Shown here in pieces: positions 1,095 to 15,621 of a stretch of 64,000 nt of DNA. The stretch is from Escherichia coli (GTDB lineage Bacteria; Pseudomonadota; Gammaproteobacteria; Enterobacterales; Enterobacteriaceae), in the NCBI RefSeq assembly GCF_024502345.1, contig NZ_JALDNN010000001.1. One strand, written 5' to 3'. Each line of letters opens with the position of its first letter. Within the stretch, counting starts at the first letter, position 1. The notes below the pieces were generated by a model, which searched no databases, was not told where the DNA came from, and was given only the letters and a program-made list of their open reading frames with translations. A program made the translations under genes and the position numbers.

Positions 1095-1726
1095 ACAGGG
1101 TTCTCAGCGTGAAAAACAAAAATCCCCGCGCTCCGGTCAGGGAGGCGGGGGATTCACGGAGATAATATCTATCTGAATTTATTTAGAATATAAGCAGGCT
1201 CATGTAACTGTAGCAGTGTCAACTTTACATCACAGCTCATGTTGGCTGGTGGTATTTTGCCAATAGTAGACATTTACGCCTAGGTTTAGATATCGAAATT
1301 AGTACACCAATATAGATACAGCAAAGAGGGAACTGATTTGTCTGCGCGAGACTAGAACCGTTGCCCCCTGTGGTTCGATGGATTGCAGGAAAATCATTTC
1401 CGGTGCTGAAGAGAGCCTCCGATACAACCTGAGAATATTTTAAGAACATCAAAATGAATGACGTAATTTACTCAAAGGCGATTGCCTAATATGTCATGAT
1501 ATTAGTAGCATTTAATTGCGTGAAAGTTTGTATATTCTTTTGAATTTATCTCAAAGCTAAAACCTCGTCAAAAATACACAAAAGGGTTTTGAGAAACAAG
1601 AGCCTGATGCTGAATCTGCTACAGAGCTGGGTTCTGTTCTGTTAAACTTGCGGTTAAAAATTTCCAAGAAAACCTAGGATATGACATGAGTTCACTGCAC
1701 ACCAGTAGTAGCAGCAGGGCGGTCAC

Positions 1727-4540
1727 ATGCCAATGGAGAGCTGTACGCAAATGAACGCCGTAGAAATTGAACAAGCCATCACGGATCTTGCAGAGCAACC
1801 CTTTGATCCTATAGAGTTTCCTTATGCTTTTCTTGAAGCCTTTGGTAACAAGGAAACGACTGTCAAACGCTTGCGCGCCGGTGCATCAAACAAATCCGAC
1901 TTGGGCGGTGTTCTCCAGAGCAATAATATTCACATTCTGACCTGCGAAGCAGGGACTGTGACTCAGATGTTGGCCGCGCTCAAGGCTAGCCCTGCGACAA
2001 CTAAAGCCAAGGCGAAGTTCATCCTGGCTACAGATGGCAAAGATTTCGAAGCTGAAGACCTCGTTAGCGGTCAGACTGTCGCTTGCGCCTTTAAAGACTT
2101 CCCAGATCACTTCGGCTTTTTCTTGCCATTAGCAGGCATTAGCACAGTTCGTCAGATTTGTGAGAACTCCTTTGACATTCGGGCCACTAGCCGGCTGAAT
2201 CGTCTGTATGTCGAGTTGTTGAAAGATAACCCTACCTGGGGGACGGCGGAGCGACGTCATGACATGAACAAATTCATGACTCGGCTGATCTTTTGTTTTT
2301 TCGCTGAGGATACTGACATTTTCGTGGGTAAGGGACGCTTTACTGAAACCGTTGCGCAGATGAGTACAAGAGATTCGTCGAATACGCATGAAGTTATCGC
2401 TACCTTGTTTCGTGCCATGAACACCAGTAACAAAGATAGAGCCGCCGCTGGCATCCCGCGCTGGGCCAATGAGTTTCCTTATGTCAACGGACGCTTGTTC
2501 TCTGGGAGTAATGATGTACCACTGTTCAGTAAGATTGCACGGTCTTATTTGCTCCATGTGGGTAGCCTTGACTGGACCAAGATTAATCCGGATATCTTTG
2601 GCTCGATGATTCAGGCAATTGCCGAAGACGAAGAACGCGGAGAGCTGGGGATGCATTACACCAGCGTACCCAACATCTTAAAAGTTTTGAATCCACTATT
2701 TCTGGACGACCTGCGCGCAAAGCTGGATGAGGCGGGTGACAATCCGCGTATGTTGCTTAACCTGCGTAAGCGCATTTCCCACATCCGTGTGTTCGACCCA
2801 GCGTGCGGTTCTGGTAACTTTTTGGTTATCGCGTACAAGGAAATGCGTGCCATTGAGGCCGAAATCAACAAGCGGCGTAATGAGCCAGATCGCGCCTCGG
2901 ATATCCCACTTACCAACTTTCGCGGGATTGAACTAAGAGATTTCCCGGCAGAGATCGCCCGCCTTGCGCTTGTTATCGCTGAGTACCAATGTGATGTACT
3001 GTACCGTGGGCTGCGGTTGGCCTTGGCTGAGCTTCTTCCGTTACGCAACGAAAATTGGATTACCTGTGGCAATGCACTACGGCTCGACTGGTTAAGAATT
3101 TGCCCGCCGACAGGAACAGGTGTGAAATTACATGGCGATGACTTGTTTGGATCTCCGCTTGATCAGGCAGAGATCGACTTTGAGAATGAAGGCGGAGAGA
3201 CATACATTTGCGGTAACCCACCATACCTTGGTTCAAAGTGGCAGACGGATGAACATAAAGCTGATCTTGGCACAATCTTTTCTGGTCGCGTGAAAAATTG
3301 GAAATCGCTCGATTATGTTGCTGGCTGGTTCCTGAAAGCCGCTGACTATGGTAGCCAGACAAGTTCCCAGGCTGCTTTTGTTGCCACTAATTCAATCAGC
3401 CAAGGGCAGCAAGTGTCGATTCTGTGGCCGGAAATATTCAAGGCAGGACAAGAGATTAGTTTCGCTTACACGAGCTTTAAGTGGTCGAACCTCGCTACTC
3501 ACAACGCCGGGGTCACAGTTGTTATCATCGGAATTTCTAACTGTGTAGGAAAGTCGCGACGCCTCTTTTCGGCTGGAGGAGACAATGGTGCGACGACGTG
3601 TCGTGAGGTGGAGCGCATCAACGCCTATTTGATCGCTGGCCCTAACATCATTGTGGAGGGGGACAGTTGTCCAGCCGACAGTCTTGCAACGATGCAGTTC
3701 GGTAACCACCCGTACTATGGTGCATCACTGATCTTTTCGAGATCTGAAGCACAGCAGATGATGTCTGTCGATCCGCGTACGGCGCGTTTTATTCGCCCAC
3801 TATATGGCTCCCAAGAGTTCATTTCCGCTGTGCCACGAGCCTGTCTATGGATTAACGACGATGAGGCTGACGAAGCGGGGACGATTCCTCTGATAGCTGA
3901 GCGTATGAGCGCCGTAGCAAGTGCTAGACGTGCAAAAAAACAAGACAAGGCAGCCCAGAAACTGGCTAAGACTCCATATCGCTTTCGCGACCAGCAGACA
4001 TCTACGAATCATATTCTTGTGGTTCCTCGAGTCAGTTCAGAGAACCGTCCTTGCTTGCCGGTTGGATTACTTGACTCTGACTCTATCGTTCAAGATCAAG
4101 CATTCGCCCTTTACGACGCTCCTCTCTGGAACCTCGCCATCATAGCGAGTCGCCTGCATCTAGTTTGGATCGCCACGGTTTGTGGAAAGTTAGAGACACG
4201 CTACCGCTATTCAAACACCCTCGGCTGGAATACTTTCCCGCTCCCAACACTCACTGAGAAAAATAAGGCAGACCTCACGCGCTGTGCAGAGGATATTCTT
4301 CTGACTAGGGAGCATCACTTCCCTGCAACCATTGCAGACCTTTATGACCCCGAGAAGATGCCAGACGACCTGCGTATTGTGCACGAGCGTAATGACGAAG
4401 TGCTTGAGCGTATTTACATTGGGCGCCGCTTTAAGAATGACACAGAGCGGCTTGAGAAGCTGTTTGACCTTTATACTAAGATGGCCGCTTCAACTGCATC
4501 GGGCAAAAGCAATAAACGTAAAGTGGGAACCAATGCATGA
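1727..4540 (+). CDS. MmeI-family (type IIG/IIL-like) N6-adenine DNA methyltransferase with target-recognition region; N-terminal nuclease motif apparently degenerate
   Basis: 937-aa ORF. SAM motif I FDPACGSGNFLV, catalytic motif IV GNPPY, and MmeI/PglX hallmarks FPYVNGRLF, HYTSVPNILKVLNPLFLDDL, FVATNSISQGQQVSILWP, RYRYSNTLGWNTFP, LYDPEKMP. Alternative start at 1751 (MNAVEIEQ). Confidence 0.85.
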   Translation: MPMESCTQMNAVEIEQAITDLAEQPFDPIEFPYAFLEAFGNKETTVKRLRAGASNKSDLGGVLQSNNIHILTCEAGTVTQMLAALKASPATTKAKAKFILATDGKDFEAEDLVSGQTVACAFKDFPDHFGFFLPLAGISTVRQICENSFDIRATSRLNRLYVELLKDNPTWGTAERRHDMNKFMTRLIFCFFAEDTDIFVGKGRFTETVAQMSTRDSSNTHEVIATLFRAMNTSNKDRAAAGIPRWANEFPYVNGRLFSGSNDVPLFSKIARSYLLHVGSLDWTKINPDIFGSMIQAIAEDEERGELGMHYTSVPNILKVLNPLFLDDLRAKLDEAGDNPRMLLNLRKRISHIRVFDPACGSGNFLVIAYKEMRAIEAEINKRRNEPDRASDIPLTNFRGIELRDFPAEIARLALVIAEYQCDVLYRGLRLALAELLPLRNENWITCGNALRLDWLRICPPTGTGVKLHGDDLFGSPLDQAEIDFENEGGETYICGNPPYLGSKWQTDEHKADLGTIFSGRVKNWKSLDYVAGWFLKAADYGSQTSSQAAFVATNSISQGQQVSILWPEIFKAGQEISFAYTSFKWSNLATHNAGVTVVIIGISNCVGKSRRLFSAGGDNGATTCREVERINAYLIAGPNIIVEGDSCPADSLATMQFGNHPYYGASLIFSRSEAQQMMSVDPRTARFIRPLYGSQEFISAVPRACLWINDDEADEAGTIPLIAERMSAVASARRAKKQDKAAQKLAKTPYRFRDQQTSTNHILVVPRVSSENRPCLPVGLLDSDSIVQDQAFALYDAPLWNLAIIASRLHLVWIATVCGKLETRYRYSNTLGWNTFPLPTLTEKNKADLTRCAEDILLTREHHFPATIADLYDPEKMPDDLRIVHERNDEVLERIYIGRRFKNDTERLEKLFDLYTKMAASTASGKSNKRKVGTNA

Positions 4541-6582
4541 GCAACAAGATTAGATCTGTACCGTCAGTTTCTGTTACCTACTCACGCAACGGAGCATCGA
4601 CCAAGGCTAATTCTCTTGGGATGCGTCCTATGCAAGAAAGGGCTTATGAGAAGCGCGGAGAACAATATCTTCTCATAAAGTCGCCGCCCGCCTCTGGCAA
4701 GAGTCGTGCGCTGATGTTCGTCGCACTCGATAAACTCGCAAACCAGGGGATCAAACAGGCAATCATTGTCGTGCCGGAAAAATCTATCGGCGCGAGCTTC
4801 AACGATGAACCGCTATCGCAGTTTGGATTCTGGGCTGATTGGCATGTTGAACCTAAGTGGAATCTGTGCAACGCCCCCGGTAACGACAACGGCGGCAAGG
4901 TAAAATCTTTCGGCTCTTTTCTTGAAAGTAGCGACAAGGTGCTTGTTTGTACACACGCAACCTTTCGCTTCGCGGTCGATGCCTACGGTGTAGAGGCGTT
5001 TGACGATCGCCTGATCGCCGTCGATGAATTTCACCATGTGTCCGCTAACCCGGATAACAAGCTTGGTCAGCATCTGGGACAGTTCATTGAGCGTGACAAG
5101 ACGCACATCGTGGCCATGACCGGCTCCTACTTCCGGGGAGATGCGGAAGCCGTTTTGGCTCCTCAGGATGAGTCTAGGTTCGATACCGTCACCTACACCT
5201 ACTACGAACAACTCAACGGTTACGAATACCTCAAACAGCTTGATATCGGATACTTCTTTTATAGTGGATCATACATTGATGACATCCTCAATGTCCTCGA
5301 TCCTGACAAGAAAACGATTATCCATATTCCCAACGTCAATTCGCGCGAGAGTACGAAGGATAAAATTAAGGAGGTGGAGCACATTCTGAGCGAGCTTGGC
5401 GATTGGCAAGGTGCGGATCCTACGACTGGTTTTCAGCTAGTCAAGCGCCCCGATGGCCATGTGTTGCGTATTGCTGACCTGGTGGACCCAGCCAGTCAAG
5501 GCAAGATTCAGGAAAGCCTCCGAGCTCCAGAAATGAAGACAGACCGTGACTATGTAGACATCATTATTGCACTTGGTATGGCGAAGGAAGGTTTCGACTG
5601 GATCTGGTGCGAACATGCGCTGACTGTTGGCTACCGTGCCAGCCTGACTGAGATCGTGCAGATTATCGGTCGCGCTACTCGCGACGCGCCGGGTAAAACC
5701 CGCGCGAGATTTACTAACTTGATCGCCGAGCCCGACGCTGTAGAGGGCGCAGTAACTGAGGCAGTCAACGATACCTTGAAAGCTATCGCGGCGAGCCTGT
5801 TGATGGAACAGGTACTGGCTCCGCGCTTCGAGTTCAAGCCCAAGAATCCTGAAATCGGTCCGACTCCAGGCTTTGATTATGGTGATGGAGGATATGACCC
5901 GGATAGCTGCAATTTTGGTGTTAATGAGCAGACAGGGACGTATCAAATCGAGATTAAGGGACTTGCCGAGCCTAGGAGCAAAGAGGCGGCACGTATCTGC
6001 CAGGAAGATTTAAACGAAGTGATCGCGGCCTTTGTGCAGGATAAGCCCGCCATCGAACGAGGCCTGTTCGATGAAGAGCTGATCCCTGAAGAGTTAACAC
6101 AGGTTCGTATGGGTAAGATCATCAAAGAAAAGTATCCTGAACTTGATGCTGAAGATCAGGAGGCTGTACGTCAGCATGCTATCGCCGCCCTTAACCTCAC
6201 GCAGCAGGCCAAGCGTCTTGCTACCGGTGAAAACGATGGGACGCTCAATACTGCTCTTATTGACGGAGTGCGTCGCTTTGCAATGGATGTGCGCGATTTA
6301 GACATAGACCTTATCGACCGCATCAATCCCTTTGGTGAAGCCTACGCTATCCTTGCTAAGACGATGAGTGAAGACAGTTTGAAGCAGGTCGCGGCGGCCA
6401 TCTCGGCCAAGCGTACTTCGATCACGCCTGAAGATGCCAAGGTGATCGCCAAGCGTGCCGCTGAATTCAAACGTGAACGTGGGCGCCTCCCATCGTTAAC
6501 TTCGCTGGATGCTTGGGAAAAACACCTTGCTGAAGGTGCAGCCGCGTTTATGCGTTTTAGGGCGGAGGGACGTTATGAGTAA
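4537..6582 (+). CDS. SF2 DExH-box helicase with ~280-aa C-terminal extension of unknown function
   Basis: 681-aa ORF. Walker A PPASGKS, motif II VDEFHH, motif III MTGSY, motif VI QIIGRATR. Start ATG overlaps the methyltransferase stop (ATGA at 4537-4540). Confidence 0.8.
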   Translation: MSNKIRSVPSVSVTYSRNGASTKANSLGMRPMQERAYEKRGEQYLLIKSPPASGKSRALMFVALDKLANQGIKQAIIVVPEKSIGASFNDEPLSQFGFWADWHVEPKWNLCNAPGNDNGGKVKSFGSFLESSDKVLVCTHATFRFAVDAYGVEAFDDRLIAVDEFHHVSANPDNKLGQHLGQFIERDKTHIVAMTGSYFRGDAEAVLAPQDESRFDTVTYTYYEQLNGYEYLKQLDIGYFFYSGSYIDDILNVLDPDKKTIIHIPNVNSRESTKDKIKEVEHILSELGDWQGADPTTGFQLVKRPDGHVLRIADLVDPASQGKIQESLRAPEMKTDRDYVDIIIALGMAKEGFDWIWCEHALTVGYRASLTEIVQIIGRATRDAPGKTRARFTNLIAEPDAVEGAVTEAVNDTLKAIAASLLMEQVLAPRFEFKPKNPEIGPTPGFDYGDGGYDPDSCNFGVNEQTGTYQIEIKGLAEPRSKEAARICQEDLNEVIAAFVQDKPAIERGLFDEELIPEELTQVRMGKIIKEKYPELDAEDQEAVRQHAIAALNLTQQAKRLATGENDGTLNTALIDGVRRFAMDVRDLDIDLIDRINPFGEAYAILAKTMSEDSLKQVAAAISAKRTSITPEDAKVIAKRAAEFKRERGRLPSLTSLDAWEKHLAEGAAAFMRFRAEGRYE

Positions 6583-7753
6583 TTCTGATTTAGACGATTT
6601 GGCGGCAGAACTTGCTGAATTTGCACCACCGGAGAAGAAAAAAGGACGTCCAGCCAGCGAGGAACGCATCATCGCAGGTTTTGAGGAAATCCAGCGCTTC
6701 GCTGACCAACATGGACGTGCGCCGCAACACGGCGAAGAGCGTGAGATCTTTGAGCGCCTCTATGCAGTGCGGCTCGACCGGCTACGCAGTCTCCCAGACT
6801 GCCGTGCCTTGCTAGAGCCGCTGGATCATCAAGGCTTATTGGCTGGAGGGGGTGATGTAGCGGAGTCAGCGGACGAAATTATCGATATCGATAATTTGGC
6901 TGCCGAACTGACGGATGTTTCCAGCGAGGATGATATCACAGTCTTGCGTCATGTTCGTGCTAGCGCCGAAAAGCGTGCTGTACAAGGGATCGCGGATCGC
7001 AAGCCGTGCGAGGATTTTGATACATTCAAACCGCTATTTGAACAGGTGCGCAGTGATCTAAGTTCAGGGTTAAGAGTGACCCGACCTTTTGGACAGTATG
7101 CAACGATTGAAGTGGGCCATTGGTTCATCCTGGATGGTCAAACGGCTTATGTGGCTGAGGAAGGTGAAGAGTTCGATTCTCCACAGGGGAAGAAAGATGC
7201 TCGGCTGCGTGTCATTTATTCGAATGGTACAGAAAGTAACCTGCTTCGGCTGTCATTAGTTCGTGCTTTGTATAAAGACGAAACAGCACGTCGAATTACC
7301 GATCCAGACATGGGGCCTTTATTCAGCGATGCTCTAGAAGAGAGCGATCTAGAAAGTGGCACCATTTATGTATTGCGTTCGCTATCAGATAACCCTTATG
7401 TGGCCGAACATCGTGATGTTATTCACAAGATTGGTGTGACTGGCGGCAAGGTCGAGACTCGTATTGCTAATGCTGAACACGATTCCACCTATCTGTTGGC
7501 GAAGGTAGAGGTGGTCGCTTCATACAAACTCGCAGGTATCAACCGCACCCGGATGGAAAACCTGTTTCACAGGTTGTTTGCACCCGCAAGGCTTAACATT
7601 ACCATTAACGACCGTTTCGGCCATCCAGTACAGCCCGAGGAATGGTTTCTCGTTCCGTTATTCGTTATCGATGAGGCTGTTGCACGTATTAAGGATGGTA
7701 GCATCATTGGGTATGTTTATGACCCCATGTCTGCGAAACTGGTGAAGGCATAG
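6575..7753 (+). CDS. T5orf172/MUG113 (GIY-YIG superfamily) domain protein, candidate nuclease, with acidic N-terminal domain of unknown function
   Basis: C-terminal GTIYVLRS...HKIGVTGGKVETRIANAEH...PEEWFLVPL fits the T5orf172 GIY-YIG-like pattern. GGAGGGA Shine-Dalgarno 6 nt upstream of ATG 6575; start overlaps the helicase stop (taa 6580-6582). The ORF track's upstream ATG at 6509 lacks an RBS. Confidence 0.65.
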   Translation: MSNSDLDDLAAELAEFAPPEKKKGRPASEERIIAGFEEIQRFADQHGRAPQHGEEREIFERLYAVRLDRLRSLPDCRALLEPLDHQGLLAGGGDVAESADEIIDIDNLAAELTDVSSEDDITVLRHVRASAEKRAVQGIADRKPCEDFDTFKPLFEQVRSDLSSGLRVTRPFGQYATIEVGHWFILDGQTAYVAEEGEEFDSPQGKKDARLRVIYSNGTESNLLRLSLVRALYKDETARRITDPDMGPLFSDALEESDLESGTIYVLRSLSDNPYVAEHRDVIHKIGVTGGKVETRIANAEHDSTYLLAKVEVVASYKLAGINRTRMENLFHRLFAPARLNITINDRFGHPVQPEEWFLVPLFVIDEAVARIKDGSIIGYVYDPMSAKLVKA

Positions 7754-7868: not shown

Positions 7869-8660
7869 ATGAATAGTAACCTGACCAAGATATGTTACCG
7901 TGGTGAGACTGGTGAAAGTGATCTAAGAACGTTGATACTTGGTGAGATTCTATATATCTCACTACGAGATGTTTTAATCACGCTGAATAAAGAAAATAGA
8001 GAAATCAACGCTGATTACACAGTAAAATCGATGGCTGGAATAATCAGGGCGCAATTACAGGCTCTTGACCCTGATGAGTATATTACTACAGATGCTGAAA
8101 ATGGTGTTTTTGAAGGTCAGAAAGAGATCTTCGTCACCCAGCCAGGTTTGTATCGAGTCATGTCAAGTGACCGAAGCGCTGCCGGTAAGCGCTTTCAAAA
8201 ATGGTTATTTCATGAAGTCATACCATCATTGACTAAGCATGGTGTATACCCGCCTCCGCCAGAAGCGAAAGGTTCAGCCCTTGCACAAATGGCTGAGATA
8301 CTTGCTCAAAATTCGCGAGCACTTGCTGACGCAATCCATAAACACGAAAAACTGGCCGAAGATGTCTCACAGGTTAAAGGTAAAGTTGCCAACGTTGAAA
8401 GCCGTCTGGAACTGTTAGAATCAGGTCCTTCCACTGTAACTGAAGATATGCATACTCTTGATAGCCGTCTCGCTTATTTGGACATGAGCATGGAAGAAAA
8501 GCATACCACCGAGACATTAGCCTGGTGCGAGAATATTTCTGTTCAAAATAACAGGAAGGTGATTCGCAAGGACTGTAGGGAGAATTCGCTCTTTACAACG
8601 CAGACTATCGACGAAGCAATCGCTATCATGACTGAAAGTGGAAAAATCACACCAAATTGA
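7869..8660 (+). CDS. Bro-N (KilA-N/antirepressor-like) domain protein with coiled-coil C-terminus
   Basis: 263-aa ORF. N-terminal ...DLRTLILGEILYISLRDVLITL...GLYRVMSSDRSAAGKRFQKWLFHEVIPSLTKHGVY resembles the Bro-N fold pattern. GAGGAT RBS upstream. Confidence 0.55.
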   Translation: MNSNLTKICYRGETGESDLRTLILGEILYISLRDVLITLNKENREINADYTVKSMAGIIRAQLQALDPDEYITTDAENGVFEGQKEIFVTQPGLYRVMSSDRSAAGKRFQKWLFHEVIPSLTKHGVYPPPPEAKGSALAQMAEILAQNSRALADAIHKHEKLAEDVSQVKGKVANVESRLELLESGPSTVTEDMHTLDSRLAYLDMSMEEKHTTETLAWCENISVQNNRKVIRKDCRENSLFTTQTIDEAIAIMTESGKITPN

Positions 8661-8716: not shown

Positions 8717-8739
8717 GGCCTTCCCACAAAGAGAAGGCC
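8717..8739 (-). terminator. Intrinsic terminator hairpin for the minus-strand YfjJ-like gene, between convergent genes
   Basis: ggccttc / 9-nt loop / gaaggcc, followed on the minus strand by tatttt. Confidence 0.45.
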
Positions 8740-8748: not shown

Positions 8749-9375
8749 TTACAGATCGATTTGGCTACAGCCGAAGTTACGGTCTCCTTCACCAAACACT
8801 TTGCTTTCGACTTTGGTGAGGTAATCCAGTCGGGTTAACAGCGCTTGGTAGTTATGCTGGAAGTCAGCATTATTGGTATCCAGCACGTACTTACAGTTGT
8901 CAGGAAAATGGACCAGACCAGGGTGATCATCCAGTTTCAGTCCCAGGGCGCTGTACCACGCTCCCGTAATCATCCCTCTCAGGTTATCGTGCTGATCGTA
9001 ATCCCCGAGGTGGTAGTAAGCGTCTTTGTTGAACAACAGGCAAATGTGGTAGTGGCATTTACCTGACTCAGAATACTCTTTCGCCCATATAATAAATAAA
9101 GGGCAACGGTAGATGCGTTTACCTTCACGCTCCTTACGGGTACGGTCAGCCTCCAGTTTAGCTCTGAGGGAATCACGCATTCGGGATATCACCCCTGGTT
9201 CAAGATTAGGGAAACAGCAGATATTGTCTCCGTTATCGACTATCTTCGGATAATGCAGATCGACACGTACCGCCGTTAACCTGGGGTAACGGTTAGTCAA
9301 ATAACATAATAATTTTTTAATCTTGATCTGATATTCGAGGATATGTACTCCATGAGTACCTTGATATGTTTTCAT
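8749..9375 (-). CDS. YfjJ/YagK-family (inovirus Gp2-like) prophage protein
   Basis: 208-aa ORF resembling the YagK/YfjJ family of CP4-type islands; in the island-backbone position expected from K-12 CP4-57. Confidence 0.65.
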   Translation of the reverse strand: MKTYQGTHGVHILEYQIKIKKLLCYLTNRYPRLTAVRVDLHYPKIVDNGDNICCFPNLEPGVISRMRDSLRAKLEADRTRKEREGKRIYRCPLFIIWAKEYSESGKCHYHICLLFNKDAYYHLGDYDQHDNLRGMITGAWYSALGLKLDDHPGLVHFPDNCKYVLDTNNADFQHNYQALLTRLDYLTKVESKVFGEGDRNFGCSQIDL

Positions 9376-9646: not shown

Positions 9647-10216
9647 TTAACCGATGATTCCGTTATTCCAGTGCCGCTTCACAGTCGATAAACTGATACT
9701 CAATTTCTTTGCAATCTCAGCCTGAGTAAATCCACCTTTCTTAAGTATTGTGATATCACGTCGGTATTTGCTTCCCTCCTTTCGTCCTAATTTCTTCTTA
9801 ACATGTCGATATCGGCTTTTAGTTGATTTCAGATTGTGAATGTCAATCGTATCCTGACGAGCAATCAAAAAAGACAAGCAACTTTCAGCAGAAGGCTCTA
9901 TCCTTGAAGCTGGATGGTAGCTGTAGATAAAAATTTCTTTTTGAAGGCAAAAAAATAAAATATTCTGTAAGTCCTCCACAGTTCTGCCAAGACAGCTTAG
10001 ATCTGGAATGACAAGCGTGTCCTGCCGGTTCATTTCATGATGAATCAATTGTCTGAGTAAACGTTGCTCTGAAACAACCTCTTTAATATCTACCTGCTCG
10101 ATCACAACATGTTCAGGTAGAATATTAAATTTTTGGCATATCTCAGCAAGTGAGTGATGATCTGTAATGCTTTCTTGCTGTTCGCTACTGCATATGGTGT
10201 AAAAAAATGAACGCAT
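9647..10216 (-). CDS. Serine-recombinase (resolvase/invertase)-like protein with C-terminal HTH, conserved residues partly substituted
   Basis: N-terminus MRSFFYTICSSEQQ matches the resolvase catalytic-serine region and DTLVIPDLSCLGRT the second conserved block; C-terminal GGFTQAEIAKKLSISLSTVKRHW is a Hin-like HTH. The ORF track extends to 10345; start chosen at the internal Met. Confidence 0.55.
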   Translation of the reverse strand: MRSFFYTICSSEQQESITDHHSLAEICQKFNILPEHVVIEQVDIKEVVSEQRLLRQLIHHEMNRQDTLVIPDLSCLGRTVEDLQNILFFCLQKEIFIYSYHPASRIEPSAESCLSFLIARQDTIDIHNLKSTKSRYRHVKKKLGRKEGSKYRRDITILKKGGFTQAEIAKKLSISLSTVKRHWNNGIIG

Positions 10217-10371
10217 CTGATGCACTCCGGTGTCATAAATTATTCTTTGATACCTGAACAATGTCATTTTGTATAAAAAATAACCAAAAATAGAGCGTGA
10301 TTGCCAGCGATACTTTGAGTGGTAAAGTAGTATTTTACCTCTCATAATTGTTTGTCCTTCTTTGTTACCTC

Positions 10372-11085
10372 TTAGGTTCTGCTCTCCTGTGAGTATGGGT
10401 TTATAATGATGTCATCCGGTGCATTAACACGGTTGGAAACATTTGTTTTACGGATCACTGGCAGCATAACCACCATCTCATTGACATGGTAAATATCAAT
10501 CCAACAAACAACCGGATAAGGCATAACAATCCCCTTTCTTCTAAGAACTTCATTTATCCCGAATATAATTAATTGGGATGTTGACAAGAGTAGAGTCTGC
10601 CCGACATCAAAGTAATAATCCTCAAAGGTTGTTCTATGAATAAGAATAATGTTTGAATATCCCAAGACACTTTGATGCTTTACATTAAAATGTCGTTGAT
10701 TGTAAATGTAAATGGCTTTTTCCATATCGTAATTTTCCCTCAGCGAGGATAGCCTTTCACGTATAACTGTTTTTTCATCTTTCCCCATGAATTCATCATT
10801 AGCGTTCAGTTTAAAGTAATCTGTAATTGGGATTTTTAATGGACTCATGATGTTCGTTTTCCAGATTAACGAACAGTATTCTTCCAGAGTCACTTCTTTT
10901 TCACCTCGATTTCGAATAATTCTTTCATTTATAGTGAATCTTAGTAGATCGTTTTTTAGCTCCTTTATTAGCCATTGATAGCGAAGACATTGCTCGAATA
11001 TATGTACCGTCAACGCCACAGAGTCTGATATGACTGAGGAAAGAGATTTATTATTCATCCTGGCATAATGCTCAAGAGTTTCCAT
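10372..11085 (-). CDS. Hypothetical protein, AT-rich orphan island gene
   Basis: 237-aa ORF with no recognisable motif; low GC relative to surroundings. Confidence 0.45.
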   Translation of the reverse strand: METLEHYARMNNKSLSSVISDSVALTVHIFEQCLRYQWLIKELKNDLLRFTINERIIRNRGEKEVTLEEYCSLIWKTNIMSPLKIPITDYFKLNANDEFMGKDEKTVIRERLSSLRENYDMEKAIYIYNQRHFNVKHQSVLGYSNIILIHRTTFEDYYFDVGQTLLLSTSQLIIFGINEVLRRKGIVMPYPVVCWIDIYHVNEMVVMLPVIRKTNVSNRVNAPDDIIINPYSQESRT

Positions 11086-11245: not shown

Positions 11246-11458
11246 TTACTCTATTGCCCGGGTTCGTTGTAAAATCCATTCGTCTATTTCAGCCTCTATC
11301 CAGCCGACAGATTGCAGCCCCAGACGACGTTGTTTCGGGAACGTTGGGTCATAGCGTGGCGATTTCGGATTGATCCAGTCATAGATTGTTGAACGTGACA
11401 AGCCCGTTTTGTCAATTACTGTAGAAAGACGAAGTATTTTAACATTAGATTTGTTCAT
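11246..11458 (-). CDS. alpA: AlpA-family prophage transcriptional regulator (excision activator)
   Basis: 70-aa ORF MNKSNVKILRLSTVIDKTGLSRSTIYDWINPKSPRYDPTFPKQRRLGLQSVGWIEAEIDEWI matches AlpA. Confidence 0.85.
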   Translation of the reverse strand: MNKSNVKILRLSTVIDKTGLSRSTIYDWINPKSPRYDPTFPKQRRLGLQSVGWIEAEIDEWILQRTRAIE

Positions 11459-11879
11459 AGCTGATTACCTCAAATCGAAGTGCTCTGGATGATGTGAGAT
11501 TAGCTTTAAGGCAGCCAATCTAAAATGTATGTGCCAAAAAAACTTTTTTTTACGAACGGGAAATAAATATCCTATTGAAATTTAATGATTTTATTTTTTT
11601 TCTGTCGGGTCCATCAGAACGGTGTGAATTCAGTTACAGCCTTCCGGTCCGGTAATGGGCCAGTTATATGTTGAGTGGCTGCGCTTCGATGACTTCTGTT
11701 TCAGTGGGCTGGTCTATCTCCGACGTGCTGTGGCAGGTAGCGGTTCAGCAGTAGCCATTATTCGTTCTGCTCCGTCAGTACCGCACCCAGCAGCCGCAAG
11801 ATGCTCTCTTCATTGGGAAGATACCTACCACTGTCAACGCCAAGATTGTTGGCCGTTTCGTCCGCATCCCCTATTGGTC

Positions 11880-12570
11880 ATTAATGTTGTCCGCTTTCCG
11901 CCGTTTCATCTCTTTGTTCAGGCGCTCCAGCGTGTTTGTGGAGTGGGTTTTTCACTTGGTGTGCTTTCGGGAGGCCGAAGGACGCCAGCACGTCTGCCTC
12001 TGCTTCGTCCATCACCCCGGTGACCGCCGGGTTGCTTTTCTCCCATTGACCGGCAACCTTGCACAGGTGGCATGGGCGCTTTTCTCGTCGGTCTGCACGA
12101 ACACCTGTTGCAGCGCCGCACGGACCACCGACTGGTTTGCACGGCTGACGCGGCTCAGCACGTTGCGCATGAAGTGGACCCGGCAGCGCTGCCAGCTGGC
12201 GGAGAACATCTGCCTATCGCCGCCTTCAGGCTCAGCAGGAAGGTCAGCCAGGATGCCGTTTATCCATGCTTCCTGGATAACCGCGTTGAGCGCCTTCTCA
12301 GACAATCTGTGGGCCTCCAGGAAGGGCGGGAAGTACGTCCCTTTAAGCAGCTTCGGAATACGCAGGTCCACAGCGTGCCGAGCTGGCGGGGACTGACGGT
12401 CACGATAGCCGTTGTGGTAGGTTTCGCGCTCATCGCTGCGCTAGTGGGCTCCGCGTTGATGTGCTGAGTGACATCTGCTTCCATAATGCAGTTGAGCATA
12501 AATTCGGTGAGTTCACGCAGAAAATCCTCGCCGCCGAGTAGCATCAGGGTGTTGCTGAATGTCATGCTGT
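11880..12570 (-). pseudogene. IS256-family (Mutator-type) transposase remnant, frameshifted with internal deletion
   Basis: Minus-strand fragments: 12260..12565 (MTFSNTLMLLGGEDFLRELTEFMLNCIMEADVTQ, typical N-terminus) and 12012..12371 (...QRCRVHFMRNVLSRV motif) in different frames; the DDE core between them is absent. Confidence 0.55.
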
Positions 12571-12784: not shown

Positions 12785-13558
12785 ATGATATGGAATATGC
12801 TTGATATTTTTTGCTCGGAATTTGAAGAAAAAAGAAACAAATTAAAGACCTACCTTGAAAGCTCGGGATTTCTTTATAGGCATTCTATCATCAAAAAAAT
12901 GTCTCTTTTGGATGGTATGGATGAAAGCCAGAATTTTGAGTTGTTGCAGGCGAAACAATATAATCGTGATGATATACAATGCTGGGAGTATATTAGCTCT
13001 AAGTGGACCGTCGTTCCTATTATGATGGGTTCGCAAAGCCTTAAACACTTTTTTACATGGAATTTTAAGGCCGCTGGGATATTTCAGCGATATGGAAAGG
13101 ATATGTGGGATATCAACAAGATAATTGCAGTTAAATCTTTATTGTTTGCTAGTTCAGTCTTAGGTAGTTGCCTTGGGGTTGCAGGCTATGGCCCGTTGCT
13201 GCCTTCGGAGCTTGCATTAGACAAAAAGAAGCTAACTAAGAAAAAACAGTCAGCAAGAATGGGAGGGATATCTAAGGCTGAATTATATCTCCCGATAAAA
13301 GAAGAGACGATAAGATTGCTCCACCAAAATGTTCCTGTGGATGGTAGATGGAAAAATAAAACGGTTGCAGCAAAGGCAATAGAGGCAGATTTAGTCATCT
13401 TTGTACAAAATTTGAAATCTCAAAACCAAAATCTGGATCTTAATGAAGAAGATATTATTACAGTCGTCAAACGTTGGGAACGCAATGATGAAAGAGTAAA
13501 GGCTGCATTTGAGGGAACGGTGAAGCAAAAAATCTCTGGCAAGAAGGGCTCGGGTTAG
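12785..13558 (+). CDS. Hypothetical AT-rich, lysine-rich protein with one predicted hydrophobic segment
   Basis: 257-aa ORF; hydrophobic stretch IIAVKSLLFASSVLGSCLGVAGYGPLL. No recognisable domain. Confidence 0.45.
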   Translation: MIWNMLDIFCSEFEEKRNKLKTYLESSGFLYRHSIIKKMSLLDGMDESQNFELLQAKQYNRDDIQCWEYISSKWTVVPIMMGSQSLKHFFTWNFKAAGIFQRYGKDMWDINKIIAVKSLLFASSVLGSCLGVAGYGPLLPSELALDKKKLTKKKQSARMGGISKAELYLPIKEETIRLLHQNVPVDGRWKNKTVAAKAIEADLVIFVQNLKSQNQNLDLNEEDIITVVKRWERNDERVKAAFEGTVKQKISGKKGSG

Positions 13559-13589
13559 AACTTCTCATTATTTTTTCCAAAAATAAGAA

Positions 13590-13609
13590 CCGCGCCTTTG
13601 AAGGCGCGG
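13590..13609 (-). terminator. Hairpin terminator between convergent integrase and hypothetical gene
   Basis: ccgcgcc-tttgaa-ggcgcgg, followed on the minus strand by a T-rich tract. Confidence 0.4.
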
Positions 13610-13620
13610 ATTAAGTAGAA

Positions 13621-14862
13621 TCAAACAACAAGTTTTAATGCACCGGCACTAGATTCTACCATGCTTCCTTTATCTGCTCTTTTAACAAAATCAGCCCACC
13701 ATTGCATCATCGGCCTACGTTGCTCAAGATAATCACTGCGGTTATAAGCGCGACGTACCTCATTTTTGTCTACATGAGCAAGTGCGGCTTCAATGACATC
13801 AGGAGGAAATCCTTGCTCATTGAGGGCTGTACTGGCGATAGAACGCAAACCATGTGAAACCAGCACTCCCCCTAAACCGGCACGCTTGAGTGCAGCATTC
13901 ACGGTTTGACTGTTCATCGGCTGAGTGGGCTTAATGCGGCTTGGAAAAATAAAATCTCGGCCACCACTGAGCGGCTTCATCATTTCCAGAATAGCCAGAG
14001 CCCCATCAGATAATGGAACGGTATGGTCCCGGTTCATTTTCATTCGGGCTGCTGGAATTTTCCATTCGTTAGCATCAAAATCGATCTCATTCCACCGAGC
14101 TTCTGCGGCTTCTGCGGGGCGGGTGATGGTGAGAAGTTGCCACATGAACAGACACCGCGTAGACAGGCTGATACTGGCCGTACGCATAGTTTGCATCAAC
14201 TGAGGCAACTGATCCGGACGAATACTGGGCATGTTCTTTTTCTGAGGTTTCTCGAAGGCTTTGCCAATATTAACACTGGGAACTGCATCAATCAGGCCCG
14301 TGTTTTGGGCATAAATCATGACTTCATTGATCCGTTGGCAAAGACGGCGGACAGTTTCCAGTGCTCCTCGGGCCTGAACGGGTTGAACGGCTTGAACCAG
14401 TGTATGGGCTTTAATATCTGTAACGCTTACGTTGCCAATTGCGGGAAATATATCTCTTTCAAGCGAACGCCAGATATCATCAGCATAGTCCTCGGTTACA
14501 CTGGCTTTCTTCACATTCCACCAACGCTCGGCAACTAACAAGAAAGTGTTGGTTTTGGCCTCCTGAGAATTTCTTATCTGTTCTTTTTGGTATTCCTGAG
14601 GATCGATTCCTTTTGCCAGTAATACTTTGGATTCAGCTCTGAGCTTACGAGCATCGGAAAGCGAGACAGCAGGATAGGAACCGAAGCTCTGTTTAGTTCG
14701 CTGTTTTGTCAGAGGTCGGTAATAACGGAATTGCCAGAGCTTACTGCCACTGGATTTGATTAGCAGCGTCAGTCCGTCACCATCATACAACTGATAATCG
14801 GCATCTTTAGATTTGGCTGCTTTGATTTCCGTATCCGTTAACGGCTTGGTTTTTCTTGCCAC
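13621..14862 (-). CDS. intA: P4-type tyrosine integrase of a CP4-57-like island (GTG start)
   Basis: 413-aa ORF beginning (M)ARKTKPLTDTEIKAAKSKDADYQLYDGDGLTLLIKSSGSKLWQFRYY, immediately downstream of ssrA on the same strand. Confidence 0.9.
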   Translation of the reverse strand: MARKTKPLTDTEIKAAKSKDADYQLYDGDGLTLLIKSSGSKLWQFRYYRPLTKQRTKQSFGSYPAVSLSDARKLRAESKVLLAKGIDPQEYQKEQIRNSQEAKTNTFLLVAERWWNVKKASVTEDYADDIWRSLERDIFPAIGNVSVTDIKAHTLVQAVQPVQARGALETVRRLCQRINEVMIYAQNTGLIDAVPSVNIGKAFEKPQKKNMPSIRPDQLPQLMQTMRTASISLSTRCLFMWQLLTITRPAEAAEARWNEIDFDANEWKIPAARMKMNRDHTVPLSDGALAILEMMKPLSGGRDFIFPSRIKPTQPMNSQTVNAALKRAGLGGVLVSHGLRSIASTALNEQGFPPDVIEAALAHVDKNEVRRAYNRSDYLEQRRPMMQWWADFVKRADKGSMVESSAGALKLVV

Positions 14863-15044
14863 GGTGGAGTCTCCATGCTTTTAGGCCCAACAAAGACCAT
14901 AGATCTTTTCGTTGGGCCTATCAATGGGCCTAAAACAATTAGCTTAGGTAGGATCAAATCAGATAGCGCTGGACATAAAAAAGCCCGTAAGTCGTTGTGA
15001 CTACGGGTTTTTTGGTTTTTCTTGGATTGCTTTGGAATAAAATT

Positions 15045-15407
15045 TGGTGGAGCTGGCGGGAGTTGAACCCGCGTCCGAAATTCCTACATCCTCGGTACTA
15101 CATGCTTAGTCAGTCTTTACATTCGCTTGCCAGCTGCGGACGGACACGCCACTAACAAACTAGCCTGATTAAGTTTTAACGCTTCAACCCCAGGCAGGGC
15201 TTCCACGCGATCTCTTTTGGGTTTGACCTCTCTTGATCCCCGTCCTAAGAGCGGAGGCTAGGGAGAGAGGGCTCTAAGCAGGTTATTAAGCTGCTAAAGC
15301 GTAGTTTTCGTCGTTTGCGACTATTTTTTGCGGCTTTTTACGAGGCCAACCGCCCCTCGGCATGCACCTTGGGTTTCGCAAATCCCGTCGAATCCAGAAT
15401 CAGCCCC
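15045..15407 (-). ncRNA. ssrA: tmRNA (SsrA); its 3' end is the island integration site
   Basis: Reverse complement reads GGGGCTGATTCTGGATTCGACGGG...GGGTTCAACTCCCGCCAGCTCCACCA, with the tag-coding region and tRNA-like ends. Confidence 0.95.
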
Positions 15408-15621
15408 AATGTGTAAAGGTAAGTATACCAGATTTATGAGCGCCATGACCAGCCTCAATGGCGTTATCGTTAAAGATTTAGCACCCATGTAGCCTGATTT
15501 TTATTCGATTAAGCAATGGAATGGCAACATTTGTGTCGGATGTGATAACCAATAAGATGTTCATTCGCGCCGCCGGAGAGGGAGGCGCGGTGAGGAACTG
15601 GTCAATAATTGGAGTGCAGGT

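What the first reader, a model, noticed from the sequence alone, without database searches (positions are those of the whole stretch)
13621..15407. Island integrated at the 3' end of ssrA; cargo differs from the K-12 CP4-57 gene set
The integrase, AlpA, YfjJ-like and YfjP-like genes reproduce the CP4-57 backbone order as I recall it for K-12. However the interval between the YfjJ and YfjP homologues, which in K-12 holds yfjK-yfjL-yfjM and the rnlAB toxin-antitoxin, here holds the Bro-N gene and the methyltransferase-helicase-nuclease cassette. This marks a variable cargo slot carrying alternative defence functions.
Basis: established knowledge. Interest (0 to 1): 0.5.

Follow-up and report, generated by a model that had tools for sequence, protein, structure and literature searches.

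The report
Mosaic ssrA island with swappable defence cargo
This is the first 15 kb of an ordinary E. coli genomic island inserted at the end of the tmRNA gene; its internal cargo slot holds a restriction-like three-gene cassette where strain K-12 holds other anti-phage genes, which is a correct observation of a pattern already described.

Summary
ssrA lies at 15045-15407 (-) and an IntA-type integrase at 13621-14862 (-). Homology with island-free E. coli genomes stops at the ssrA 3' end.

- The backbone is a mosaic. The integrase and AlpA are CP4-57-type (92% and 71% aa identity). The yagM-yagL-gp2 module is CP4-6-type (83-97%; only 44% to YfjJ). yfjI is absent.
- The YfjP-like GTPase gene is cut by IS903B.
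- The cargo slot is window 1185-8711, with a terminator-like hairpin at each edge.

Sister islands with about 99% identical flanks hold a Type III restriction-modification (RM) system in the same slot. K-12 holds AbpAB and RnlAB there. A related ssrA island holds PD-Lambda-4.

The cargo here is a BRO-N gene plus a YeeA/DnmA-YeeB-YeeC-type cassette: an MmeI-like methyltransferase lacking the nuclease motif, an SF2 helicase and a GIY-YIG nuclease. Its defence role is inferred; the B. subtilis homologue showed no restriction activity.

Neither cargo is ancestral: the cassette is in 98 of 5426 complete genomes and the K-12 cargo in 371. The tmRNA locus is a published defence hotspot and the cassette family is published, so this is an already known kind and interest is low.

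The parts
15045..15407 (-). ssrA (tmRNA) gene. Its last ~15-19 nt (15045-15063) are the island-proximal attachment core (attL).
   Evidence: ARAGORN; Rfam RF00023, 295.8 bits; matches to island-free genomes end at 15044/15045; K-12 annotates CP4-57 as starting 15 nt inside ssrA.
13621..14862 (-). IntA-type (P4-family) tyrosine integrase, 413 aa
   Evidence: NCBIfam PRK09692, 900.6 bits, full length; 92.5% aa identity to K-12 IntA.
12785..13558 (+). Hypothetical protein in the YfjH position (257-aa ORF), function unknown
   Evidence: 29% identity to K-12 YfjH over 201 aa; PHROG 19089, unknown function; annotated hypothetical in sister islands.
11764..12568 (-). Decayed IS256-family transposase remnant. 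Coordinates are approximate, mapped from the NH-21 annotation.
   Evidence: Frameshifted transposase pseudogenes at the same place in NH-21, ST536, KCJ3K291 and 2013C-4282; ORFs 12012-12371 and 12260-12565.
11246..11458 (-). AlpA-family HTH regulator/excisionase-like protein, 70 aa
   Evidence: 70.6% aa identity to K-12 AlpA; PHROG 2790 and PHROG 66, 'excisionase and transcriptional regulator'.
10372..11085 (-). YagM-like ORF, 5'-truncated. The CP4-57-type/CP4-6-type mosaic junction (~11127) falls in what would be its 5' end.
   Evidence: 82.7% aa identity to K-12 CP4-6 YagM; nucleotide homology to CP4-6 ends at 11127; RefSeq calls it a pseudogene missing the N-terminus in sister islands.
9647..10345 (-). 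YagL-like protein (resolvase-like N-terminal domain plus HTH)
   Evidence: 97% aa identity to K-12 CP4-6 YagL; weak matches to serine invertase models.
8749..9375 (-). Inovirus-Gp2-family protein (YagK/YfjJ family); last backbone gene before the cargo slot
   Evidence: 92.8% aa identity to CP4-6 YagK and 43.8% to CP4-57 YfjJ; PHROG 25019.
8717..8739 (-). Terminator-like hairpin (9-bp stem, then TATTTT) 3' of the gp2-family gene; marks the right edge of the slot
   Evidence: Strongest terminator-like site in the scan; fold -18.1 kcal/mol, z -3.6; homology with K-12 CP4-6, NH-21 and ST536 starts at 8712 in all three.
7869..8660 (+). BRO-N domain, anti-repressor-like protein, 263 aa; part of the cargo
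   Evidence: PHROG anti-repressor Ant families; RefSeq 'BRO-N domain-containing protein' in 2013C-4282 and ECC-1470; absent from NH-21 and K-12 CP4-6.
6575..7753 (+). GIY-YIG/T5orf172 nuclease (YeeC-type), 392 aa; its start overlaps the helicase stop by 8 nt
   Evidence: Pfam MUG113 7.5e-13 and T5orf172 1.2e-10; 80-91% identical homologues across beta- and gamma-proteobacteria.
4537..6582 (+). SF2 DEAD/ResIII-type helicase (YeeB-type), 681 aa; its start overlaps the methyltransferase stop by 4 nt
   Evidence: Pfam DEAD 8.9e-06 and ResIII 3.2e-05; PHROG 16, DNA helicase; no similarity to K-12 AbpB.
1727..4540 (+). MmeI-family N6-adenine DNA methyltransferase lacking the PD-ExK nuclease motif (YeeA/DnmA-type). 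The ORF is 937 aa; RefSeq starts it at 1751, giving 929 aa.
   Evidence: Pfam MmeI_N, MmeI_hel, MmeI_Mtase, MmeI_TRD and MmeI_C; phmmer to MmeI 5hr4 aligns only from residue 96; the N-terminal 160 aa find nothing in the PDB; PADLOC PDLC03598, 3.9e-284.
1120..1152 (-). GC-rich hairpin followed by a U-run, just upstream of the GTPase start codon; lies inside the conserved left flank of the slot
   Evidence: Fold -27.3 kcal/mol, z -4.3; homology with NH-21 and EA13 ends at 1184 and 1189.
669..1094 (-). YfjP-like GTPase gene, 5' fragment (142 codons), disrupted by IS903B
   Evidence: 65% aa identity to K-12 YfjP and 100% to the first 142 aa of the KCJ3K291 GTPase; small-GTPase models.
1..673 (+). 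Partial IS903B (IS5 family); the window starts inside it
   Evidence: 100% identity over 1-673 to annotated IS903B copies.

Best explanation
Window 1-15063 is the ssrA-proximal part of a CP4-57-family integrative island of E. coli.

Integration (inferred from K-12). A P4-type tyrosine integrase (IntA) recombined the element into the last ~15 nt of the tmRNA gene. The island restores the ssrA 3' end. An AlpA-family regulator is the likely excision activator, as in K-12.

Mosaic structure (shown). The element has three kinds of segment:
- the att/integrase/AlpA end is CP4-57-type;
- the next module (5'-truncated yagM, yagL, gp2-family gene) is CP4-6-type;
- the distal part starts with a YfjP-like GTPase gene, here broken by IS903B.

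Cargo slot (shown). Between the terminator of the gp2-family gene (8717-8739) and the region upstream of the GTPase gene (~1185) lies a 7.5-kb cargo slot. Related islands carry interchangeable anti-phage modules in this slot.

Exchange mechanism (inferred). Exchange most likely occurs by homologous recombination in the conserved flanks, which are shared by CP4-like islands at different tRNA/tmRNA sites.

Cargo here. It is a BRO-N anti-repressor-like gene plus a three-gene operon with overlapping junctions: an MmeI-like methyltransferase without a nuclease motif, an SF2 helicase and a GIY-YIG nuclease (YeeA/DnmA-YeeB-YeeC type).

Likely action of the cassette (inferred, not shown). It most likely works as a restriction-modification system. 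The methyltransferase subunit reads and methylates a non-palindromic site through its target recognition domain (TRD). On unmodified DNA it recruits the helicase and the GIY-YIG nuclease to cut.
For: Island and junction:
- tmRNA and integrase are confirmed.
- Matches to island-free genomes end at the ssrA 3' end.
- The closest complete relative, 2013C-4282, shows the whole ~25.8-kb island from ssrA to a degenerate ssrA-end repeat next to ypjA, at the same place as K-12's psaA.

Mosaic:
- Protein identities to K-12 CP4-57 and CP4-6.
- Nucleotide homology to CP4-6 spans exactly 8712-11127.

Slot:
- The right breakpoint 8712 is identical in K-12 CP4-6, NH-21 and ST536. The left breakpoints are 1184 and 1189 in NH-21 and EA13.
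- Terminator-like hairpins sit at both edges.
- Cargoes seen are a Type III RM (PADLOC MTase_III, 4e-297), PD-Lambda-4 A+B, and AbpAB/RnlAB.
- The same yagM-yagL-yagK-BRO-N-cassette block sits in the intF (CP4-6-position) island of ECC-1470 at 93%.

Cassette:
- Domain content and overlapping gene junctions.
- No alignment of the first ~95 aa to MmeI, and no [DE]xK motif there (and reading the sequence).
- The same three-gene order occurs in P. aeruginosa at the edge of an ICE-like element.
- The methyltransferase TRD is swapped among E. coli alleles (29-43% identity at about aa 600-750), while the helicase and nuclease stay 96-98% identical. This is the pattern expected when sequence specificity is under diversifying selection.
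- Morgan et al. 2009 proposed this mechanism for this subgroup (PMC2731913).
Against: - The B. subtilis dnmA-yeeB-yeeC cluster was reported not to act as an RM system and not to protect against phage (PMC9973331), so defence by this cassette is unproven.
- PADLOC has no model hit for the nuclease and only weak PbeA hits for the helicase.
- The island is partly decayed (IS903B in the GTPase gene, an IS256 remnant, a truncated yagM), and the distal att lies outside the window. Present-day mobility therefore cannot be judged.
- IS elements lie in or beside the slot in several relatives (IS66 remnants in 2013C-4282; IS30, IS3, IS110 and IS26 in KCJ3K291). Some cargo change may therefore be IS-driven rather than by flank recombination.
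- Overall terminator-like counts in the region are no higher than in shuffles; only the two named hairpins stand out.
Confidence: 0.8

Rival explanations
1. The island and slot are as described, but the MmeI-like cassette is not a defence system in E. coli. The methyltransferase acts as an orphan epigenetic regulator, and the helicase and nuclease are inactive or serve another role, as proposed for B. subtilis DnmA-YeeB-YeeC.
For: Fernandez et al. 2023 found no restriction and no phage protection from dnmA-yeeB-yeeC in B. subtilis (PMC9973331). No curated defence model matches the helicase or nuclease.
Against: All three ORFs are intact and have overlapping junctions. The partners are 96-98% conserved while the TRD is swapped. 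The nuclease is 80-91% identical across two proteobacterial classes and is carried by mobile elements. In sister islands the slot holds proven or canonical defence systems.
Confidence: 0.3
2. There is no dedicated slot. The differences from K-12 simply reflect unrelated islands that share only the ssrA integration site, or random IS-mediated rearrangements and deletions inside one island.
For: The tmRNA gene is used by many unrelated elements (PMC10121019). IS903B, IS256, IS66, IS1 and IS5 copies or remnants occur in or beside the region in this window and its relatives. Strain M6 has its cargo directly next to the integrase, not behind a gp2-family gene.
Against: Three independent comparisons break at the same base (8712) with no IS there, and two break at 1184/1189. 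Flanks are 96-99% identical around completely different cargo. The same module order (gp2-family gene, cargo, GTPase gene) recurs in K-12 CP4-57 and in the NH-21 and ST536 islands.
Confidence: 0.12
3. The element is a P4-like phage satellite with its known defence hotspot, rather than a CP4-type integrative island.
For: The integrase is P4-family. P4-like satellites integrate at the tmRNA hotspot and carry defence hotspots (PMC10121019; PMC9519451).
Against: No P4 primase/helicase-type gene (YfjI/DUF3987) is present, and the RefSeq annotation of the full sister island shows no P4 capsid-size or regulatory genes. The distal genes are the CP4-type set: GTPase, WYL, DUF932, antirestriction, RadC, YeeU/CbtA.
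Confidence: 0.05

Closest known systems
CP4-57 cryptic prophage of E. coli K-12 (ssrA to ypjA)
   Same: Same chromosomal site and attachment core. IntA is 92.5% and AlpA 70.6% identical. A gp2-family gene precedes a cargo interval, which is followed by a YfjP-type GTPase gene (65%).
   Different: There is no yfjI, and the YfjH position holds a 29%-identical protein. The gp2-family protein is only 44% identical to YfjJ. The cargo is entirely different: AbpAB, YfjM and RnlAB in K-12; BRO-N plus the MmeI-like cassette here.
CP4-6 cryptic prophage of K-12, and the intF island of E. coli ECC-1470
   Same: The yagM-yagL-yagK module is 93% identical in DNA (window 8712-11127). ECC-1470 carries the same BRO-N plus three-gene cassette next to yagK.
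   Different: Those islands use IntF with YagN/YkgV and sit at a different chromosomal site, next to paoD/yagP. K-12 CP4-6 has yagJ and IS1 after yagK.
ssrA island of E. coli 2013C-4282 (NZ_CP027579.1)
   Same: It is the only one of 5426 complete genomes with the whole arrangement (94% of window 1-15500 at 97.2%). The methyltransferase is 100%, the helicase 99.7% and the nuclease 98% identical.
   Different: It has IS66 remnants between the methyltransferase and GTPase genes, a longer IS256 copy and an intact GTPase gene, and it lacks the IS903B insertion.
B. subtilis DnmA(YeeA)-YeeB-YeeC cluster; the MmeI-homologue subgroup of Morgan et al. 2009
   Same: An MmeI-like methyltransferase without the PD-ExK motif, followed by a DEAD-family helicase and then a GIY-YIG/T5orf172 protein, in the same order.
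   Different: Direct sequence comparison with the Bacillus proteins was not made. The Bacillus cluster was found inactive as an RM system. The E. coli alleles show TRD swapping.
MmeI (Type IIL/IIG restriction-modification enzyme, PDB 5HR4)
   Same: The helicase-spacer, methyltransferase, TRD and C-terminal domains are homologous (E 4.4e-138).
   Different: The first ~95 aa do not align and carry no (D/E)xK motif, so the protein lacks MmeI's own nuclease. Separate helicase and nuclease genes follow it.
[quoted passage not shown]
   Same: Same locus and same principle: a mobile element with a fixed integration site carries varied defence cargo.
   Different: In the text I read, those papers do not describe the specific gp2-terminator-to-GTPase slot of CP4-type islands.

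Membership tests
CP4-57-type ssrA-integrating island | Junction at the 3' end of the tmRNA gene | tested here: met
   tmRNA at 15045-15407; matches to island-free genomes end at 15044/15045.
CP4-57-type ssrA-integrating island | IntA-type P4-family tyrosine integrase next to ssrA | tested here: met
   PRK09692 at full length, 900 bits; 92.5% aa identity to K-12 IntA.
CP4-57-type ssrA-integrating island | AlpA-family regulator | tested here: met
   70.6% aa identity to K-12 AlpA; PHROG excisionase/regulator families.
CP4-57-type ssrA-integrating island | Distal direct repeat of the ssrA 3' end (attR) | not testable with these tools
   None in the window; the island runs off the window start. 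The closest relative and K-12 have a degenerate repeat, CGCCAGCCCACCA, next to ypjA.
CP4-57-type ssrA-integrating island | K-12 proximal gene set yfjH-yfjI-yfjJ | tested here: not met
   No yfjI hit; the YfjH-position protein is 29% identical; the gp2-family protein is 44% identical to YfjJ but 93% to CP4-6 YagK. The module is CP4-6-type.
CP4-57-type ssrA-integrating island | Distal CP4 module (GTPase, DUF932, antirestriction, RadC, YeeU/CbtA) | tested here: inconclusive
   Only the first 142 codons of the GTPase gene are in the window, cut by IS903B. The full module is present in sister islands.
YeeA(DnmA)-YeeB-YeeC-type MmeI-like cassette | MmeI-homologous methyltransferase with methyltransferase, TRD and C-terminal domains | tested here: met
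   Pfam MmeI_Mtase 1.2e-115, MmeI_TRD 4.9e-79, MmeI_C 8.2e-16; MmeI 5hr4 at E 4.4e-138.
YeeA(DnmA)-YeeB-YeeC-type MmeI-like cassette | No PD-ExK nuclease motif; the first ~100 aa are unlike MmeI | tested here: met
   The alignment to MmeI starts at query residue 96; the N-terminal 160 aa find nothing in the PDB at E<=10; no [DE]xK in residues 1-95 by reading the sequence.
YeeA(DnmA)-YeeB-YeeC-type MmeI-like cassette | DEAD-family helicase gene immediately downstream | tested here: met
   Pfam DEAD and ResIII; 4-nt overlap with the methyltransferase stop.
YeeA(DnmA)-YeeB-YeeC-type MmeI-like cassette | GIY-YIG/T5orf172 gene second downstream | tested here: met
   Pfam T5orf172 and MUG113; 8-nt overlap with the helicase stop; same order in P. 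aeruginosa.
YeeA(DnmA)-YeeB-YeeC-type MmeI-like cassette | Direct sequence homology of the partners to B. subtilis YeeB and YeeC | not tested
   The Bacillus sequences were not retrieved. Assignment rests on domain content and gene order as described in PMC2731913 and PMC9973331.
YeeA(DnmA)-YeeB-YeeC-type MmeI-like cassette | Restriction or anti-phage activity | not testable with these tools
   It needs experiments. The B. subtilis cluster was negative.
Type IIG/IIL single-polypeptide RM enzyme (the PADLOC label REase_MTase_IIG) | Nuclease and methyltransferase in one polypeptide | tested here: not met
   PADLOC PDLC03598 matches at full length, but the nuclease motif region is absent. The label does not fit this subgroup.
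BREX / DISARM | PglX or DrmMI methyltransferase together with the other system genes (PglZ, BrxC; DrmA, DrmB, DrmC) | tested here: not met
   Only partial PglX and DrmMI hits to the methyltransferase; no other BREX or DISARM component among the island proteins.
P4-like phage satellite | P4 alpha primase/helicase (YfjI/DUF3987-type) and sid/delta/psu genes | tested here: not met
   No YfjI homologue in the window; none annotated in the full sister island.
E. coli defence hotspot #9 (tmRNA locus) | Mobile element carrying defence genes, integrated at the tmRNA gene | tested here: met
   Location. An RM-like cassette lies in the island here, and PADLOC-recognised systems lie in sister islands. 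The hotspot is described in PMC10121019.

The most novel reading that the evidence does not exclude
CP4-type islands at different tRNA/tmRNA sites (ssrA, the CP4-6 site and others) would share one discrete cargo slot with a terminator-like hairpin at each edge, between the gp2-family gene and the GTPase gene. Through this slot, defence cassettes would be exchanged by flank recombination. The E. coli YeeABC-type cassette in the slot would be an active helicase-driven restriction system whose specificity is re-assorted by natural TRD swaps. That would give a tractable model for a widespread RM class that has never been shown to restrict.
Probability: 0.4. Interest if true: 0.4.

Novelty: already known. 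Interest (0 to 1): 0.22.

Why it matters
As an observation it is routine. It is one more example of mobile elements at the tmRNA gene carrying interchangeable anti-phage modules, a pattern already mapped across the E. coli pan-genome.

Its practical value is threefold:
- It gives a clean natural experiment: flanks that are 96-99% identical surround three or four different cargoes. This allows the exchange junctions to be defined.
- It places an intact YeeA/YeeB/YeeC-type cassette in E. coli, where the proposed [quoted passage not shown] restriction mechanism could be tested. So far the only experimental test, in B. subtilis, was negative.
- It cautions that automated labels for this methyltransferase are misleading. 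"Type IIG RM" does not fit the subgroup that lacks the nuclease motif, and "class I SAM-dependent DNA methyltransferase" is uninformative about it.

Tried and rejected
- **Distal att repeat.** I searched the window for a second copy of the ssrA 3' end, allowing up to 2 mismatches, and found none. The distal att must lie beyond the window start.
- **PADLOC and NCBIfam on all island proteins.** Apart from the integrase and generic small-GTPase models for the GTPase fragment, only weak or below-cut-off hits: nothing for the GIY-YIG nuclease, BRO-N, the gp2-family protein, YagM-like or orf257; weak PbeA hits for the helicase; weak invertase/sigma hits for YagL-like.
- **BREX or DISARM.** Considered because of partial PglX and DrmMI hits. 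Rejected, because only the methyltransferase core or TRD matches and no partner genes exist.
- **Diverged AbpB/YfjK.** I asked whether the helicase is a diverged AbpB/YfjK, which would make the cargo orthologous to K-12's. Rejected: no tblastn hit in CP4-57.
- **P4 satellite.** Rejected: no P4 core genes.
- **N-terminal domain of the methyltransferase.** Searched alone against the PDB at E<=10, it found nothing.
- **Rfam scan of 1-16000.** It found only the tmRNA.
- **Literature searches.** Searches for CP4-57 with defence and hotspot, and for yfjJ/yfjP with genomic islands, returned no paper describing this intra-island slot.
- **Promoter scan.** Promoter-like counts in the slot are no higher than in shuffles, so I name no promoter.
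Full report

Yes. ARAGORN calls a tmRNA gene at 15045-15407 on the minus strand, with the E. coli tag peptide ANDENYALAA. Rfam's tmRNA model matches the same coordinates at 295.8 bits against a gathering score of 47.

The next gene inward is an ORF at 13621-14862 (-) encoding 413 aa. It matches NCBIfam PRK09692 (integrase) end to end at 900 bits against a cut-off of 434. It is 92.5% identical to K-12 IntA. The finding's coordinates therefore span exactly the integrase plus ssrA.

The flanking chromosome (smpB, ratA, bamE, recN and onward) is ordinary E. coli core. It matches complete genomes at up to 99.8%.

**2. Is it an island at the ssrA 3' end?**

I searched 5426 complete E. coli genomes with window 13400-15100. 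Almost all matched only the last 56-62 nt of ssrA, and the match ended at window 15044/15045, the last base of the gene. Judging from the identity bands and the spread listing, roughly one genome in eight has a megablast-detectable intA homologue joined to ssrA. Only 28 genomes cover at least 80% of this allele.

The K-12 record annotates CP4-57 as starting 15 nt inside ssrA. It also annotates a 14-nt relic of the ssrA end (psaA) at the far end of the island, next to ypjA.

No second copy of the ssrA end exists in the window. The closest complete relative, strain 2013C-4282, has the same degenerate repeat as K-12 (CGCCAGCCCACCA) next to ypjA. This gives an island of about 25.8 kb in that strain. 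The window itself starts inside an IS903B copy (1-673, 100% identity), so the distal end lies off the window.

**3. Gene map, reading from ssrA leftwards**:

| Feature | Coordinates | Closest K-12 relative |
|---|---|---|
| intA | 13621-14862 (-) | IntA, 92.5% |
| 257-aa hypothetical | 12785-13558 (+) | YfjH, 29% |
| IS256-family remnant | ~11764-12568 | none |
| alpA-like | 11246-11458 (-) | AlpA, 70.6% |
| yagM-like | 10372-11085 (-) | CP4-6 YagM, 82.7% |
| yagL-like | 9647-10345 (-) | CP4-6 YagL, 97% |
| gp2-family gene | 8749-9375 (-) | CP4-6 YagK, 92.8%; CP4-57 YfjJ, 43.8% |
| BRO-N | 7869-8660 (+) | none |
| GIY-YIG nuclease | 6575-7753 (+) | none |
| helicase | 4537-6582 (+) | none |
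| methyltransferase | 1727-4540 (+) | none |
| GTPase fragment | 669-1094 (-) | YfjP, 65% over 140 aa |

The GTPase gene is cut by IS903B. There is no yfjI homologue.

Nucleotide homology to K-12 CP4-6, and to the intF island of strain ECC-1470, spans exactly 8712-11127 at 93%. The island is therefore a mosaic of a CP4-57-type integration end and a CP4-6-type middle module. The junction at about 11127 lies where the 5' end of yagM would be. That explains why RefSeq calls this gene a pseudogene "missing N-terminus" in the sister islands.

**4.

Yes. The K-12 order is intA, yfjH, alpA, yfjI, yfjJ, abpB (yfjK), abpA (yfjL), yfjM, rnlA, rnlB, yfjP. The record itself names AbpA an anti-bacteriophage protein and RnlAB a toxin-antitoxin pair. 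That RnlAB acts against T4 is established knowledge, not tested here.

**5. Is there a cargo slot?**

The best evidence comes from strains NH-21 and ST536.

- They match window 8712-15500 at 99.1% and 98.5%. NH-21 also matches 670-1184 at 95.7%.
- Between those points they carry a 5-kb segment with two genes.
- PADLOC identifies those genes as a Type III methyltransferase (full length, E 4.3e-297) and a weak Type III Res-like helicase.

The right-hand breakpoint, 8712, is the same base in K-12 CP4-6, NH-21 and ST536. It lies just past a 9-bp GC-rich hairpin followed by TATTTT, 3' of the gp2-family gene (8717-8739). This is the strongest terminator-like site in the scan, with a fold z-score of -3.6.

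The left-hand breakpoints are 1184 (NH-21) and 1189 (EA13). They lie about 90 nt upstream of the GTPase start codon, just outside another stable hairpin followed by a U-run (1120-1152, z -4.3).

The slot is therefore window 1185-8711.

Other contents seen at ssrA-linked IntA-type islands:
- AbpAB, YfjM and RnlAB in K-12.
- PD-Lambda-4 A+B in strain M6, where the layout differs and the cargo lies next to the integrase.
- An IS5-mediated deletion in strain CX04.

Only six complete genomes carry this particular backbone (8712-13400 at 80% cover or more). NH-21, 873.10 and ST536 (two records) hold the Type III RM. 2013C-4282 and KCJ3K291 hold the MmeI-like cassette. KCJ3K291 additionally has an IS-rich insert and a relic of the Type III res gene beside the gp2-family gene.

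**6. Is either cargo ancestral?**

No.

| Cargo | Genomes with a match (of 5426) | With 80% cover or more | Notes |
|---|---|---|---|
| Three-gene cassette | 98 | 87 | 3 at 99% identity or more; all chromosomal |
| K-12 cargo | 371 | 363 | nearly all at 99% or more, largely K-12 derivatives |
| Type III cargo | 395 | 24 | most matches are partial relics such as K-12 yagJ |

The whole arrangement of the window occurs in one complete genome, at 97.2% identity.

**7. What is the cassette?**

Methyltransferase. It has all five MmeI Pfam domains (MmeI_N, hel, Mtase, TRD, C) and matches the MmeI crystal-structure sequence at E 4.4e-138. That alignment begins only at residue 96. The N-terminal 160 aa alone find nothing in the PDB at E<=10. 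Residues 1-95 contain no (D/E)xK motif (read from the sequence).

Partners. The next gene overlaps the methyltransferase stop by 4 nt and encodes an SF2 DEAD/ResIII helicase. The third gene overlaps the helicase stop by 8 nt and encodes a T5orf172/MUG113 (GIY-YIG superfamily) protein.

This is the second group of MmeI homologues described by Morgan et al. 2009. Those proteins lack the PD-ExK motif, differ from MmeI in the first ~100 residues, and are always flanked by a DEAD helicase (YeeB-like) and a GIY-YIG protein (YeeC-like). The authors proposed that the MmeI-like subunit supplies specificity and protective methylation, and that the helicase and nuclease cut the DNA (PMC2731913). Fernandez et al. 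2023 confirmed the conserved dnmA-yeeB-yeeC order across bacteria. They also found that the B. subtilis cluster does not act as an RM system and does not protect against phage (PMC9973331).

PADLOC's full-length match labelled "REase_MTase_IIG" is therefore a misnomer for this subgroup.

**8. Extra evidence on whether the cassette is functional**

- Among E. coli alleles (window, ECC-1470, EA13), the helicase is 96-97% and the nuclease 97-98% identical. The methyltransferase falls to 29-43% identity around residues 600-750, which is the TRD, and is 84-100% identical in its first ~450 residues and 73-94% in the C-terminal ~130. This TRD-swap pattern is typical of RM systems whose specificity diversifies.
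- The nuclease has more than 8000 relatives. The best 120 are 80-91% identical and come from Pantoea, Enterobacter, Pseudomonas, Stenotrophomonas, Alcaligenes, Achromobacter, Comamonas and others.
- In P. aeruginosa the same three genes, with the same overlapping junctions, sit at the edge of an ICE-like element carrying TrbL and a NikA-like gene.

These points favour an active, horizontally spreading module. They do not prove restriction.

**9. BRO-N gene**

It matches phage anti-repressor (Ant) families. It accompanies the cassette in 2013C-4282 and ECC-1470 but not in EA13 or KCJ3K291, where IS elements lie at that place. Its role is unknown. I treat it as cargo.

**10. Comparison with what is known, and novelty**

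- The tmRNA locus is hotspot #9 of the E. coli defence-island survey. That survey notes that many element types integrate there and that each element type can carry varied defensive cargo (PMC10121019).
- Vassallo et al. 2022 likewise found that mobile elements carry defence systems at specific hotspots, including elements with P4-related integrases (PMC9519451).
- The cassette family is published.
- Near-identical copies of each segment exist in RefSeq genomes.

I found no paper that describes the specific gp2-terminator-to-GTPase slot of CP4-type islands. That slot is an instance of the known principle, not a new kind of system.

**Verdict.** The kind of system is already known, and interest is low.

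Noticed in passing
K-12 NC_000913.3 291500-292231 (L003 5501-6232), compared with L005 13603-14488: K-12 CP4-6 gene yagJ matches the last 886 bp of the Type III-like res (DEAD/DEAH helicase) gene of the NH-21 slot at 96.5%. yagJ therefore looks like the C-terminal relic of a restriction subunit cut off by IS1C. This implies that CP4-6 once held the same Type III RM beside yagK.
   Followed up: partly
window 3540-4200 (methyltransferase residues ~600-820): The target recognition domain of the MmeI-like methyltransferase is swapped between E. coli alleles (29-43% identity), while the helicase and nuclease partners stay 96-98% identical.
   Followed up: yes
window 1-673 and 669-1094: The window begins inside an IS903B copy that interrupts the YfjP-like GTPase gene after codon 142. 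The 278-aa ORF at 10-846 is a chimera of the transposase frame reading into the antisense strand of the GTPase gene.
   Followed up: yes
window ~11764-12568: The same decayed IS256-family transposase remnant sits between the YfjH-position gene and alpA in all six complete genomes with this backbone (2013C-4282 carries a longer, frameshifted copy), so it is old and inherited with the backbone.
   Followed up: partly
window 1120-1152 and 8717-8739 (minus strand): Both edges of the cargo slot carry stable GC-rich hairpins followed by U-runs on the strand that encodes the backbone genes (z -4.3 and -3.6). The cargo genes lie on the opposite strand.
   Followed up: partly
L010 14052-17798 (E. coli M6, next to the ssrA integrase): A 1248-aa hypothetical protein with no PADLOC hit lies between the integrase and a PD-Lambda-4 A+B system in another ssrA island. 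It could be an uncharacterised defence candidate.
   Followed up: no
L013 12089-14501 (E. coli KCJ3K291): In KCJ3K291 the intA gene of this backbone is followed by a DNA adenine methylase and an AAA ATPase gene rather than directly by ssrA. This suggests a tandem or rearranged array of elements at the site.
   Followed up: no
L011 4174-10182 (P. aeruginosa GCA_042611825.1): The same three-gene cassette (927, 684 and 393 aa, with overlapping junctions) lies at the edge of an ICE-like element carrying TrbL and a NikA-like gene. The nuclease is 89% identical to the E. coli one, which points to recent inter-class transfer.
   Followed up: partly
window 41358-41433: A tRNA-Glu(UUC) gene lies on the plus strand about 26 kb from ssrA. 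Its position is consistent with the gltW spacer tRNA of the rrnG operon in K-12 synteny. It was not examined further.
   Followed up: no
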